The translations under genes and the position numbers were made by a program. From Pocillopora damicornis (Eukaryota), in assembly GCF_003704095.1 (NCBI RefSeq), contig NW_020847110.1:1-64000 (forward strand): DNA of 64,000 bases. The letters run 5' to 3'. Positions within the stretch are counted from its first letter, which is position 1; each line of letters starts with the position of its first letter. The notes under the pieces are model-generated. The model saw nothing but the letters and a program-made list of their open reading frames with translations, did no database searches and had not been told where the DNA came from. Below, piece after piece: positions 5,324-41,720 of the stretch.

Positions 5324-7632
5324 ATGCAGCAAGCTTCAAACCAAAGCGGTCAGGAGGCATTTTTGTGGCACAAGGATGGTTACCTGGCTTATGGCACTGT
5401 CATGTTCTGCATCCTAACCATTGGTTTTGTTGGCAATGGTTTAACTCTTATTGTTTTGCACCAAAGAGAACATCGTAACCGTGGTGTAAACTCTCTGATG
5501 ATGAATCTGGCCTTGGCGGACATTTTCATCGTCGCTTTAGGTTACCCGATAGCAATTCAAGCCAACCTTAGGGGGAAGTCTCTGGACAGGTCTCGATGCA
5601 TCTGGTCTGCCTTTGTAAACGGTACCGTGGGTATAGCGTCCATCGCAACTCTAACCGAAATGGTTTTCGTTCCGTATTATGGCCTGAGGCAAGTCAACTC
5701 TGATACTAGACTATCGGTGGGACAAATCGTATGTATGATCGCTAGCGCCTGGTTGTATGGGGGTCTTTGTATGGCTCCACCTCTTTTGGGCTGGAATAGA
5801 TTCGTTCTTGCTGCCTCTAAAGTGAGTTGCTGTCCTGACTGGGCAGGAAGATCAGCTTCGGACACAGCCTACAGTCTTCTCCTTGTTGTCTTGGGATTTT
5901 TTCTTCCGCTTACTGTCATGGTCCTGTACTACTACAAAATTTACCGGTAACTTGAATTTTTGTGTTCATGGGTAAGGTAATTCACTCTCACAATGCCTCC
6001 TCCTCCCTGGGGAACATGGATGATTATAAGTGCACTTTCGAGGAAACTTGACTTAACAGTAAGGGCGGGGCTTACCTGCTGTCGGTAACATCATGTCCGG
6101 GCGGAGTAGCAATGCTCCTAACGCTGATTCATGCTACAGAAATAGCGATTCGCTCTGGTCAAACAAACTTGAAATGCTCAGCTGAAAGTAGCTCCTTTAT
6201 TTTTGAGCCATTTAAATACATATAACTCGCTGAGAGTGGAGGCGCGGTTGCCTCATGGTTAGTGCGCTCGACTTCAGATGGAGTGGTCCGGGTTCGAGCC
6301 CTGGCCGGGGTCATTGTGTTGTGTTCTTAGGCAAGACACTTCACTCTCGCAGTGCTTCTCTTCACCCAGGTGTACAAATGAGTACTAGCAAATACGCTGG
6401 GGGTAACCTTGCAATGGACTAGCATCCCATCCAGAGGGAAGTAGCAATACTCCTAGCCGCTTCATGCCAAGGAAACCGGAGTTAAGCGCCGGCCCCATGG
6501 GCCAATTGGGCCTGTATAAAGGCTTTACTTTACCTCGCTGAGGGTTTGGTAATCTCTTTAAAGAGATTTAAGTGTACATCGTTTCTAATTTTCTCATCTG
6601 TCTAAGAGATTAATGCACTCACCTTTTGCATAATCCTTCTTAACTTCAGACAAGTAAAAGTTTGTAATATCGTATTTGATAACTTTTGATAGTTTGGGGA
6701 CTTACGAGACCTATGCCTTGTTCCCCTCTTCTGGTTGAAAATGGGTGATTGTTACATAATAATCTTATTAATATACCCTCTGCTAACAAATGCTGAGCTT
6801 TCTGCCTAAAATGTGATTAACTATTGGTTTTTCTAGATAGGATCTAGGTGAGGGATCTCAATGTGGTTTAACCGTTAGCCGTAAAAATGCTGAAAAATTA
6901 ATCTTAAGGCATGACGAAACCGAAAAATCTAGCAGTGAACCATGAAACTCTTTAAACAGCCGTAAAACGGCGCAAAACCAAACCTTAAAGCGCGTAAAGC
7001 CAAAAAATTTAAAAGTTAGCTGTAAGCGCTACTACCTAAGAGATTATAAACTGTTTATAATTTCTCACCACCACCCCATTGATACCCTCAGATAATAATT
7101 CATAGGGATAAGCATTTTACAATCTCAAACTCTCAATAACCTCTCTTCCTATAGACTTGTTCATCAAGCAATTGTGCCAGGAAACATCGCAGTGCAAATG
7201 AGACGACGGTTTTCCAAACTAAAGATAGTGCGCATGACAGCGTTATCTGTGGTCATTTTTGTGCTAAGCTGGTCGCCATATTGTTTAGTCAGCCTCTTTG
7301 CAGTGTTCACCGGGAGGCATGTAATAACATCCGGAGAGGCGGAAATTCCCGAGTTGCTGGCCAAAGCGTCTGTCATCTACAACCCTATTGTGTATACCAT
7401 CAAGAATCGAAGATTTCGAACAACGCTGCTTCGTATCTTTCACGTAAGGCGGGTTAGAAACAAAGTGCATTCGTTAACGAATCAGTCGCGAAGTAGAGAT
7501 ATCCTTCAAAATAGCACGCGTTGCTATGGAAGCAAAACGAGTAAAGGCCACAACCCTATACACATCATGAAGTTAATTCCGCGAGGTCCTCTTACAGAAC
7601 GGGTCGAGCATCTACATCCTCCAGGAGTTTAA
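5324..7632 (+). CDS. Opsin 1, anthozoan-specific (ASO-II-like), ~366 aa; coding exons 5324-5946 and 7155-7632
   Basis: 7TM class A motifs GN (TM1), NLALAD (TM2), PPLLGWNRF, SCCPDW (ECL2), SWSPY (TM6), AKASVIYNPIVY (Lys296 at 7363-7365, NPxxY). Phase-2 intron CG|gtaac...cctatag|A joins the two ORFs in frame (..KIYR-LVHQAIVPG..). Confidence 0.95.
6063..6160 (+). mobile_element. Older degenerate 3' fragment of a related SINE
   Basis: GGAGTAGCAATGCTCCTA...TTCATGCTACAGAAA resembles the 3' part of the adjacent full SINE (GAAGTAGCAATACTCCTAGCCGCTTCATGCCAAGGAAA). Confidence 0.55.
6235..6533 (+). mobile_element. tRNA-derived SINE (CORE-like central domain) in the opsin 1 intron, with 9-bp target-site duplication
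   Basis: Pol III A/B-box head (TGCCTCATGGTTAG...GGTTCGAGCCC), central GTGTTCTTAGGCAAGACACTTCACTCTC segment and a (CTTTA)n tail. Flanked by the direct repeat CTCGCTGAG at 6226-6234 and 6534-6542. Confidence 0.9.
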
Positions 7633-7708
7633 TTAGAGGCGCTAGACTCTTGAGAGCTGATTTCGATACATTATATGGGTTCAGAGAAGCCGTGTATAGA
7701 TTTAACAG

Positions 7709-39755: not shown

Positions 39756-41720
39756 ATGGATAATATTACTACAAAAGATACTCACAGCTTACCAGGAGGA
39801 AAATCTTTCAACTGGCGCGCTATGTACTTCGCGTATGCCGTGGTCATGTTTGCTGTTGTAACTGTTGGATTCCTTGGAAATGTCTTAACTCTGATAATTC
39901 TTCACTACCGCGAGCACCGAAAGAAAGTCTTGACTCCTCTTATGATCAACTTAGCAGTGGGAGACATTCTCATGGTTATCGTAGTGTACCCCGTGGTAAT
40001 TGCGTCGAATCTCGTTGGTAAACAGCTTAAGGAGGGATCGCTGCGATGCAAGTGGTCCGCCTTCGCAAATGGCGCCATTGGTATAACCACTATCGCTACA
40101 TTAACTGTGATGAGCGGCGTTATGTATCACGGTATCAAACAGACTTTGCCAAAACCTAAAATACATGCTAAAAATATGTCTCTGCTAGTGTTAAGTACGT
40201 GGTTATACGGGATATTTCTTAATCTTCCTCCTGTGATTGGTTGGACCAGGGCTGTACCCGGTGAAGCTGGCATAAGCTGCGCCCCTGAGTGGACAAGTTC
40301 AGAGCCGGAGAGCGTAGCGTATATTGCCTTCCTATTGGTGTTTGGCTTTTTCCTTCCGCTTACTGTAATTGGGACGTTCCATTACATGATCTATAGGTAC
40401 GTGTGCATCAATTAATGCATGTTGAGTCGTTAGATTCAAATTACCCTAACCGTATGACGAAATATCAGTTGTGTTTTTCCACACAATATCAGTTAGCTTT
40501 CTTAGCTGGTGAGTGTCATTAACCCTTTCACCCCTAGGAGTGACCAGCATCTAATTCCCCGAATCACACAGTAAGGTCGTGAGAATGACGGAAATGATGA
40601 CCAGCTAACGGAGCTCTTGATTGTTAAACAAATTCTCCTTGTCAGCACATTAAGAAATGCACAGAGAACAGCATGGAGACTATATGTACTGATTTCAGAG
40701 CACAAAGTGGCTAACAGGCATGAAACTTAATGTAATATTATTTAGCAATTATTTGGCCAAATAGAAAAGACAACATTTCAACATGACCCTGCTTCTCCAA
40801 ACTTTTTCAGTCGAAAGCCACTTACCTTTTTATTTCCAGTCTAAATGATCTCCGTAGATCGGAAGGCACCAAAATGTGTCACGGCTTTACCGGTGATTAC
40901 CCCGCGTAAACAATACTACCCAACCACTGAGGATACAAAGGGGACCATGAAGTCATCACACTATAGAGACCATGCGTAATCGCTTAACACTCAAAATAAT
41001 CTCAAATCGTAGCAAATATCCTTGTTTCGTACAAATTACCTCGGTACTTTAACCAACGCATATTGTTTGGAACACATGAATAAACGAGGCTAGAAACTGT
41101 CATGAACGGTACTCAACTTCCATACTCTGCTACATGTCAGTATTAATATCTTTTTTTCAAAACTGGGGAAGTAAACGGGCGGATTCAAATATGTCAAAAG
41201 GGACTGCAGCCCCCATGCAGAGATGTTTAAGACTGACCACACTTCTTCAGCTCCCTCTTTCCGGACTTCCTCTGTCTGCTCCCACATTCCGTTTCCCATT
41301 TCTATTCTTTTCCGCAGGGTGATTCGACGAGTACCTCTGGAAGGAAACCCAATGATCCGCGCATGTCGAATGAAATCTAAAATGAGGCTAGTGCGCATGA
41401 CTTCTTTCTCTATAGCCGCGTTCGTGGTAAGCTGGTTACCGTACTGTGTAGTAAGCATAGCTGCTCTTGTAAATGGTCATCACGTGCTTTCATCCGGGGA
41501 AGCGGAAATTCCTGAACTGATGGCTAAGGCGTCTGTGATTTATAACCCATTCGTGTATGCCTTCACAAATGGTACCTACCGTGCTTCACTGAAGGGATTG
41601 CTTATCGGTGGTAATAGTGTCATTCGGGTTAATCCATCAGTTCTTAGAACCAGTCCGGCGCCGAGTAGTTACGTGAACTCAGTAATTATCAATCCACAAC
41701 AAGAGGACACAGCTCTGTAA
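39756..41720 (+). CDS. Opsin 4, ASO-II-like, ~347 aa; coding exons 39756-40396 and 41318-41720
   Basis: Motifs NLAVGD, PPVIGWTRA, SCAPEW, SWLPY, PELMAKASVIYNPFVY (Lys296 at 41526-41528). Intron AG|gtacgt...ttccgcag|G. Confidence 0.93.
40519..40714. mobile_element. ~200-bp MITE family B (TTAA-CCCTTT ends, piggyBac-like) in the opsin 4 intron
   Basis: TTAACCCTTTCACCCCTAGGAGTGACCAGCATCTAATT... is homologous to 49110-49323 (ACAAATTCTCC, GAGAACAG). Confidence 0.7.

What the first reader, a model, noticed from the sequence alone, without database searches (positions are those of the whole stretch)
5657..40128. E/DRY activation motif is lost in all four opsins, including Arg135 (3.50)
Counting from the TM3 Cys110, positions 134-136 are V-P-Y (opsin 1, 5669-5677), V-S-Y, V-V-Y and V-M-Y. 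Arg3.50 is nearly invariant in class A GPCRs and is needed for normal G-protein engagement. NPxxY, W265 and K296 remain intact in all four, so this is a shared, maintained loss rather than decay. Opsins 1 and 2 have a Glu one turn earlier (E130, TLTEM). Inference: these may be non-G-protein-signalling opsins (photoisomerase, retinal store, arrestin-biased or heterodimer modulators) or may couple non-canonically.
Basis: partly seen in the sequence, partly recalled or inferred. Interest (0 to 1): 0.75.

Follow-up and report, generated by a model that had tools for sequence, protein, structure and literature searches.

The report
Coral light receptors lacking DRY switch
Four neighbouring coral genes encode intact light-receptor proteins (opsins) without the 'DRY' switch that most G-protein-coupled receptors use; this loss is already published for their family, whose tested members still switch on G proteins, so these four likely signal too.

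Summary
Four intact two-exon opsin genes read V-P-Y, V-S-Y, V-V-Y and V-M-Y at rhodopsin positions 134-136, in a gap-free register between Cys110 and Trp161. No Arg lies at 3.50 in them or in 298 related coral and anemone sequences.

[quoted passage not shown] Sakai et al. 2025 state that the seven cloned Acropora tenuis ASO-II opsins have no E(D)RY motif and that three give light-evoked Ca2+ rises. A 2026 preprint shows that one of them activates Gi/Go directly.

None of these four proteins has been assayed. Two small additions: opsins 1 and 2 carry Cys188, which makes a tested relative self-regenerating. Opsins 3 and 4 have also lost Tyr5.58, and their subclade has no member I could match to a tested opsin. 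How ASO-II opsins couple without Arg3.50 was not explained in the papers I found. A known family trait; low interest.

The parts
5324..5946 (+). Opsin 1 coding exon 1 (TM1-TM5)
   Evidence: Pfam 7tm_1; RNA contigs in X1 and X2
7155..7632 (+). Opsin 1 coding exon 2 (TM6, TM7, tail); W265 at 7270, E292 at 7351, K296 at 7363, NPIVY 7381-7395
   Evidence: 1208-base GT-AG joint in X1 and X2
5669..5677 (+). Opsin 1 positions 134-136, V-P-Y (Pro at 3.50)
   Evidence: Pro at 3.50 in 2 of 298 relatives
5657..5659 (+). Opsin 1 Glu130 (also opsin 2, 11834-11836)
   Evidence: in 56 of 120 homologues
5831..5833 (+). Opsin 1 Cys188 (with Asp190 at 5837-5839)
   Evidence: Cys188 is required for self-regeneration in AtAntho2c
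11501..12123 (+). Opsin 2 coding exon 1; Cys188 at 12008-12010
11846..11854 (+). Opsin 2 positions 134-136, V-S-Y
12882..13368 (+). Opsin 2 coding exon 2; E292 at 13078, K296 at 13090
   Evidence: 758-base GT-AG joint in X2 and X9
9370..10972 (+). Two 5' untranslated exons of opsin 2 (about 9370-9554 and 10739-10974; the third exon starts near 11484)
   Evidence: GT-AG joints in RNA contigs: first in X2 only, second in X1, X2 and X9
27000..27613 (+). Opsin 3 coding exon 1; Leu at 5.58 (27597-27599)
27336..27344 (+). Opsin 3 positions 134-136, V-V-Y
28791..29199 (+). Opsin 3 coding exon 2; Leu at 6.35 (28867), E292 at 28987, K296 at 28999
   Evidence: 1177-base GT-AG joint in X9 only, a run only guessed to be RNA, 30 letters on the short side
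32477..32893 (+). 5' untranslated exon of opsin 4, joined across a 6.8-kb GT-AG intron to about 39720
   Evidence: one contig of X9; GT and AG ends read in the window
39756..40396 (+). Opsin 4 coding exon 1; His at 5.58 (40380-40382)
40119..40127 (+). Opsin 4 positions 134-136, V-M-Y
41318..41720 (+). Opsin 4 coding exon 2; E292 at 41514, K296 at 41526
   Evidence: 921-base GT-AG joint in X1, X2 and X9

Best explanation
[quoted passage not shown] Shown here: intact frames, splicing, the missing motif, Lys296, Glu292, no acid at 94, 113 or 181, and clade membership. Inferred from tested relatives: 11-cis retinal is bound at Lys296 with chloride as the dark counterion; light turns it all-trans and Glu292 becomes the counterion; the intact Trp265 and NPxxY switches open the cytoplasmic face; Gi/o, and probably Gq, is engaged, giving a cAMP fall and a Ca2+ rise. 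My own inference, untested: without Arg3.50 the G-alpha tail is held mainly by the long basic TM5-TM6 helices, ICL2 and helix 8, and the Arg3.50-Tyr5.58 contact is no longer needed. Opsins 1 and 2 (Cys188, Asp190) are predicted to reset thermally in the dark.
For: Diagnostic residues in all four match those given for ASO-II. All four fall in a 56-row clade (SH-aLRT 99) with Exaiptasia, Actinia and Acropora proteins, apart from the genome's other opsins. R or K at 3.50 in 0 of 120, 0 of 298 and 0 of 40 in-clade representatives, against 80 of 83 outside. PMC12401545: the seven cloned A. tenuis ASO-II opsins have no E(D)RY motif; Antho2a, 2c and 2e give light-evoked Ca2+ rises, about 30-fold for 2a. 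bioRxiv 2026.05.24.727572: wild-type AtAntho2c gives a pertussis-toxin-sensitive cAMP fall, dissociation of Gi1, Gi2, Gi3, GoA and GoB, and GIRK-dependent hyperpolarisation. PMC9884665: acropsin 4 raises Ca2+. Acropora proteins with the residue signatures of the tested opsins read V-M-F (C188/D190/D292, 2c-like) and V-S-Y (R113, 2e-like) at 134-136; the 2e-like one is 56-57% identical to opsins 1 and 2 and groups with them. Tyr5.58 is relaxed inside the clade, 16 of 40 against 79 of 83 outside. The model shows TM5 running to residue 212 and TM6 starting at 219.
Against: None of the four proteins has been assayed. The tested opsins were matched by residue signature, not by their GenBank sequences, which no call returned. 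The best matches to Antho2a and Antho2c in this genome lie on other contigs, and no signature-matched tested opsin falls in the subclade of opsins 3 and 4. Four of the seven cloned A. tenuis ASO-II opsins gave no absorption spectrum, and acropsin 5 was expressed but gave no cAMP or Ca2+ change. All signalling data come from mammalian cells. Ca2+ rises alone do not name the G protein; Gq is only proposed. Conserved K/R140 (100 of 120) is a tempting substitute for Arg3.50, but the 2c-like protein has Asn there.
Confidence: 0.85

Rival explanations
1. Some of the four, most plausibly opsins 3 and 4, or opsin 1 with Pro at 3.50, have gone further and no longer activate G proteins. They would act as arrestin-biased receptors, dimer partners or retinal stores beside signalling paralogues.
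For: Opsin 3 has Val3.50, Leu5.58 and Leu6.35; opsin 4 has Met3.50 and His5.58. Tyr5.58 is kept in 7 of 26 and 3 of 17 of their nearest homologues, against 23 of 23 and 24 of 25 for opsins 1 and 2. Acropsin 5 gave no response and four A. tenuis members gave no pigment. Pro at 3.50 is in 2 of 298 relatives.
Against: Trp265, NPxxY, Glu292 (tied to signalling strength in Antho2a) and the basic ICL3/TM6 stretch are kept. Silent results in mammalian cells are common for coral opsins: acropsin 2 answered only as a chimera. The family already signals without Arg3.50, which probably makes Tyr5.58 dispensable (inference).
Confidence: 0.1
2. All four are photoisomerases or retinal stores of the RGR/retinochrome kind.
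For: Only the missing E/DRY motif.
Against: Best sequence and structure matches are signalling opsins. [quoted passage not shown] NPxxY is intact.
Confidence: 0.03
3. The loss is an artefact of alignment, assembly error or pseudogene decay.
For: The contig has N gaps, at 112-3773 and 58695-58797.
Against: No N lies in the genes. The register is fixed by Cys110 and Trp161. Orthologues at 93% and 99% identity carry the same triplets. Introns are spliced in RNA contigs. dN/dS is 0.14 and 0.24 in the two pairs where dS is measurable.
Confidence: 0.01

Closest known systems
[quoted passage not shown] 2025, PMC12401545)
   Same: No E(D)RY; no acid at 94, 113 or 181; acid at 292; Lys296; Tyr91 and Ser186; same clade by tree with signature-matched Acropora proteins.
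   Different: The four have Ser113 (Antho2a has Leu, Antho2e has Arg). Opsins 1 and 2 are closest to the R113 (2e-like) and G113 Acropora proteins at 56-64% identity. Opsins 3 and 4 form a subclade with no matched tested member and usually lack Tyr5.58.
AtAntho2c, self-regenerating Gi/o-coupled ASO-II opsin (bioRxiv 10.64898/2026.05.24.727572)
   Same: Opsins 1 and 2 share Cys188 and Asp190; the motif is absent in both.
   Different: AtAntho2c has Asp292, the window opsins Glu292. The 2c-like Acropora protein is only 47-53% identical and groups with two genes on contig C1103, not with the window genes. Opsins 3 and 4 have Ala188.
Acropsin 4 and acropsin 5 of Acropora millepora (Mason et al. 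2023, PMC9884665)
   Same: Same group; no acid at the three classic counterion sites.
   Different: Their sequences were not seen, so orthology is unknown. Acropsin 4 raises Ca2+; acropsin 5 gave no response.
Nematostella vectensis ASO-II genes (McCulloch et al. 2023, PMC10512536)
   Same: Tandem, intron-bearing clusters, mostly of two exons; the full tripeptide at 134-136 is reported only for NvASOI-1 and NvCnidop-4.
   Different: Some Nematostella members diverge at NPxxY or keep Glu181; the four here keep NPxxY and lack Glu181.
Other class A receptors without Arg3.50, e.g. PTGDR with E-C-W (named in PMC4814114)
   Same: A natural receptor without the motif; the same paper lists V2R R137C/L as constitutively active and CCR5 R126N as uncoupled, so the effect of losing Arg3.50 depends on the receptor.
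   Different: Unrelated ligand-activated receptors with separate losses. That PTGDR signals through Gs, and that C5aR2, ACKR1 and GPR1 have altered motifs and poor G-protein coupling, is recalled, not from a call.

Membership tests
Animal opsin (class A GPCR) | Seven-helix rhodopsin fold | tested here: met
   Pfam 7tm_1 on all eight exons, seven at or above the cut-off; model of the 93% identical orthologue has seven helices and best matches cone opsins and rhodopsin
Animal opsin (class A GPCR) | Lys296 and the Cys110-Cys187 pair | tested here: met
Animal opsin (class A GPCR) | E/DRY at 3.49-3.51 (typical, not obligatory) | tested here: not met
   VPY, VSY, VVY, VMY
ASO-II | No Glu or Asp at 94, 113 or 181 | tested here: met
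   94 A/A/V/V, 113 S in all, 181 A/N/G/G; feature
ASO-II | Acidic residue at 292 | tested here: met
   Glu292 in all four
ASO-II | No E(D)RY motif | tested here: met
   feature
ASO-II | Phylogenetic placement in the ASO-II clade | tested here: met
   56-row clade at SH-aLRT 99 with Exaiptasia, Actinia and signature-matched Acropora proteins, apart from the genome's other opsins (exon-1 region, short search, no bootstrap). No row carries an ASO-II label from its source, so the clade is named by signature.
ASO-II | Intron-bearing genes, often in tandem | tested here: met
   one shared phase-2 intron, spliced; compare. Intron position was not compared with the published subtype map.
ASO-II | Chloride as dark-state counterion | not testable with these tools
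   needs pigment spectroscopy
ASO-II | Light-evoked Ca2+ or Gi/o signalling | not testable with these tools
   shown only for relatives
Self-regenerating (photocyclic) opsins | Cys188 | tested here: met
   met for opsins 1 and 2 only; opsins 3 and 4 have Ala
Self-regenerating (photocyclic) opsins | Thermal return of the photoproduct to the dark state | not testable with these tools
   needs time-resolved spectroscopy and HPLC
RGR/retinochrome photoisomerases | Placement with RGR/retinochrome and all-trans binding in the dark | tested here: inconclusive
   No labelled RGR or retinochrome was in my trees; the genes group with anthozoan proteins, and a tested relative binds 11-cis in the dark
Cnidopsins and ASO-I | Arg or Lys at 135 and placement in those clades | tested here: not met
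   the genome's intronless opsins with E-R-Y, E-R-A, E-R-C or G-K-Y/F fall outside the clade

The most novel reading that the evidence does not exclude
The subclade of opsins 3 and 4, which has lost both Arg3.50 and its partner Tyr5.58 (opsin 3 also Arg6.35), is a coral-wide line of light receptors that have left G-protein signalling or couple in a new way, kept in tandem beside self-regenerating Cys188 paralogues. More broadly, ASO-II opsins would open their G-protein site without the Arg3.50-Tyr5.58 lock, a route I found described in no structure or paper searched.
Probability: 0.12. Interest if true: 0.6.

Novelty: already known. Interest (0 to 1): 0.2.

Why it matters
As found, it adds little: the loss and the retained signalling are in print for this family. 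Its value is as a ready natural series for an open mechanistic question, namely how a class A receptor activates G proteins with no Arg3.50. One contig offers Pro, Ser, Val and Met at 3.50, Tyr, Leu and His at 5.58, and Cys or Ala at 188. If opsins 1 and 2 self-regenerate, they are further candidates for retinal-free optogenetic tools. If opsins 3 and 4 do not couple, they would be natural non-signalling light receptors in corals.

Tried and rejected
1. Shifted register placing an Arg at 3.50: rejected.

2. Pseudogene decay or assembly error: rejected.

3. E130 as a needed replacement for Glu3.49: rejected; present in 56 of 120 homologues and absent from the 2c-like protein.

4. K/R140 as the replacement for Arg3.50: conserved in 100 of 120 but Asn in the 2c-like protein, so not required.

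5. Finding Antho2a, 2c, 2e or acropsin 4 and 5 by name: three homologue searches and three cluster look-ups returned no such label. The search among longer proteins returned one unrelated rotifer protein. The acropsin supplement holds no sequences.

6. I first took P0086 (A94, L113), near opsins 1 and 2, as the Antho2a match. A separate L113 clade holding this genome's C4301 gene fits the whole signature too, so Antho2a is not claimed as close to the window genes.

7. The idea that the E181-bearing sister group without Arg3.50 is Clytia Opsin9/10: rejected, because Opsin9 is reported to keep the motif. The Atlas gave no useful name for the group.

8. dN/dS: four of six paralogue pairs are saturated and give no value. 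Orthologue DNA was not fetched.

9. A fifth opsin or opsin fragment in the window: none found.

10. Earlier findings of this scan: none shown.

RNA contig depth was not used to rank the genes.
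Full report
**What is there.** The window holds four opsin genes on the + strand: 5324-5946/7155-7632, 11501-12123/12882-13368, 27000-27613/28791-29199 and 39756-40396/41318-41720. Each has one phase-2 GT-AG intron after TM5 and an open frame of 366, 369, 340 and 347 residues. No fifth opsin piece lies in the window. Contigs from four laid runs (of 24 listed) join the exons at these places: opsin 1 in X1 and X2, opsin 2 in X2 and X9, opsin 4 in X1, X2 and X9, and opsin 3 in X9 only, a run merely guessed to be RNA. 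Opsin 4 is 99% identical to a Pocillopora verrucosa protein and opsin 1 is 93% identical to a Stylophora pistillata protein over 281 core positions, so the host is likely a Pocillopora coral (inference).

Positions 134-136 read V-P-Y, V-S-Y, V-V-Y and V-M-Y; E130 is in opsins 1 and 2; W265, K296 and NPxxY are in all four. The register is fixed from both sides, since Cys110 and Trp161 are 51 residues apart as in bovine rhodopsin. Pairwise and profile alignments to bovine rhodopsin are gap-free across TM3-ICL2-TM4. A predicted model of the Stylophora orthologue (mean pLDDT 80.7) has TM3 as one helix through 3.50 and best matches cone opsins and rhodopsin. The nearest basic residue is K/R140.

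**It is a clade-wide, maintained loss.** Of the 120 listed hits (137 found), all 120 align without a gap from 110 to 136 and none has R or K at 3.50; Tyr136 is kept in 100. Of 343 proteins then held, I dropped 19 under 140 residues and 2 outliers; 298 of the remaining 322 cover the site and none has R or K. Many of these are near-identical, so they are not independent. The unbiased representative search listed 150 proteins; 123 aligned over enough length. Inside the clade holding the window genes 0 of 40 have R or K at 3.50; outside it 80 of 83 do. This points to one old loss on the stem of the clade, with the caution that the tree is a FastTree on the exon-1 region with long branches. dN/dS is 0.14 for opsins 1 and 2 and 0.24 for opsins 1 and 4; the other four pairs are saturated.

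**Family.** All four have no acid at 94, 113 or 181, and have Tyr91, Ser186, Glu292 and Lys296. [quoted passage not shown] In a 71-row tree they fall in a 56-row clade (SH-aLRT 99, short search, no bootstrap) with Exaiptasia, Actinia and Acropora proteins, apart from this genome's intronless opsins, of which those read at the site keep R or K at 135. Opsins 1 and 2 share a 22-row subclade (99); opsins 3 and 4 share a 16-row subclade (99). Four more genes of the family lie on contigs C1103 (two), C3159 and C4301, reading V-M-F, V-M-Y, V-L-S and I-T-Y.

**What is in print.** PMC12401545 (passages, section 5, first part of section 15 read) says the seven cloned A. tenuis ASO-II opsins have no E(D)RY motif. 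It reports that Antho2a, 2c and 2e give light-evoked Ca2+ rises, that chloride is the dark counterion, and that Glu292 is the photoproduct counterion and boosts signalling. bioRxiv 10.64898/2026.05.24.727572 (passages and section 9 read) shows that wild-type AtAntho2c lowers cAMP in a pertussis-toxin-sensitive way, dissociates five Gi/o proteins, drives GIRK channels, and self-regenerates through Cys188. PMC9884665 (passages and supplement read) reports a Ca2+ rise for acropsin 4 and no response for acropsin 5. PMC10512536 (passages, section 7, first part of supplement 1) notes that only two of 29 Nematostella opsins have the full tripeptide, and that ASO-II genes expanded in tandem. PMC8097283, PMC4814114 and PMC5756024 were read as passages. 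The alignment figure of the eLife paper is an image and the preprint's supplement is closed, so I did not see the 3.50 residues of the tested proteins directly.

**Linking tested proteins to these genes.** No call returned the tested sequences by name, so I matched them by the residues the papers name. The Antho2c signature (C188, D190, D292) fits A. millepora XP_029213668, which reads V-M-F, is 47-53% identical to the window opsins and groups with the C1103 genes. The Antho2e signature (R113) fits XP_029213723, which reads V-S-Y, is 56-57% identical to opsins 1 and 2 and groups with them at 100. The Antho2a signature (Y91, A94, L113, S186, E292) fits this genome's C4301 gene. No signature falls in the subclade of opsins 3 and 4.

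**How it most likely works (0.85).** Shown: intact spliced genes, the residues above and the clade. Inferred from tested relatives: 11-cis retinal on Lys296 with chloride as counterion; light makes it all-trans; Glu292 takes over; Trp265 and NPxxY move; Gi/o and probably Gq are activated. Inferred by me: the G-alpha tail is held by the long basic TM5-TM6 helices, ICL2 and helix 8 rather than by Arg3.50. In active rhodopsin Arg3.50 pairs with Tyr5.58 (recalled). That Tyr5.58 is kept in only 16 of 40 in-clade representatives against 79 of 83 outside fits a lock that is no longer used, though this is one evolutionary event and 5.58 is less surely aligned in divergent rows. Neither E130 (56 of 120) nor K/R140 (100 of 120) is present in the 2c-like protein, so neither is a required substitute.

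**Against this reading.** None of the four has been assayed. Four of seven cloned A. tenuis members gave no spectrum, and acropsin 5 was silent. All data are from mammalian cells. Opsin 3 (Val3.50, Leu5.58, Leu6.35) and opsin 4 (Met3.50, His5.58) have drifted further; Tyr5.58 is kept in 7 of 26 and 3 of 17 of their nearest homologues, against 23 of 23 and 24 of 25 for opsins 1 and 2. Opsin 1 has Pro at 3.50, seen in 2 of 298 relatives. I give about 0.1 to one or more of them having left G-protein signalling.

**Novelty.** The motif loss and the retained signalling are already known for this family. The genes are untested members with automatically named orthologues. I found no solved structure of an ASO-II opsin and no paper explaining how they couple without Arg3.50 (searches; the library lacks most subscription journals). 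The additions here are modest: the loss mapped to one stem, the parallel relaxation of Tyr5.58, and Cys188 in opsins 1 and 2. Interest 0.2.

Noticed in passing
window 5831-5833 and 12008-12010: Opsins 1 and 2 have Cys188 and Asp190; Cys188 is in 66 of 120 homologues, so self-regeneration may be common in ASO-II rather than special to Antho2c.
   Followed up: partly
window 14614-15498 (-): A single long frame (294 codons stop to stop) between opsins 2 and 3 encodes a protein with a hydrophobic start and end, no Pfam family and no Atlas hit.
   Followed up: partly
window 50778-51791 (-): An intronless class A GPCR (Pfam 7tm_1) with an intact D-R-F at 51387-51395; not an opsin by sequence.
   Followed up: partly
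P0509, P0555, P0561, P0575, P0581 and 14 more: A 19-row group of unnamed proteins, with Lys296 where covered, that mostly keep an acid at 181 (15 of 19), lack Arg3.50 and often have Lys one place earlier at 3.49 (9 of 19). It joins the ASO-II clade in a quick tree, possibly by long-branch attraction; it may be the anemone subtype with Glu181 described in PMC8097283.
   Followed up: partly
P0005/P0027, P0007/P0022/P0026, P0030/P0032/P0058, P0278/P0306/P0389/P0417: Orthologues of different window opsins list the same longest-contig length, and four Orbicella proteins have nearby accession numbers, which suggests that the tandem cluster is conserved in other corals; contigs were not read.
   Followed up: no
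L008 (G000:C3923:57569-61129): An intronless opsin-like gene of this genome appears to have Arg in place of Lys296 (S-V-F-A-R-I-S), while its neighbours keep Lys.
   Followed up: no
L032 (G000:C1103), about 3480-3500: One of the two Asp292 family genes reads A-K-A-W-V-I-Y-N-P where relatives have A-K-A-S-V, a Trp two places after Lys296.
   Followed up: no
P0028, P0341/P0346: A few family members have an acid at 113 (Glu in P0028, Asp in an Acropora cluster), the vertebrate counterion site.
   Followed up: no
window about 6300-6470, 7740-7970, 28330-28560, 40520-40660: Short stretches in introns and spacers that many unrelated contigs match at high depth, likely small repeats or mobile elements.
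   Followed up: no
window 62326-62724 and 63058-63435 (-): Exon-like frames of another gene near the contig end; no Pfam hit for the first.
   Followed up: no
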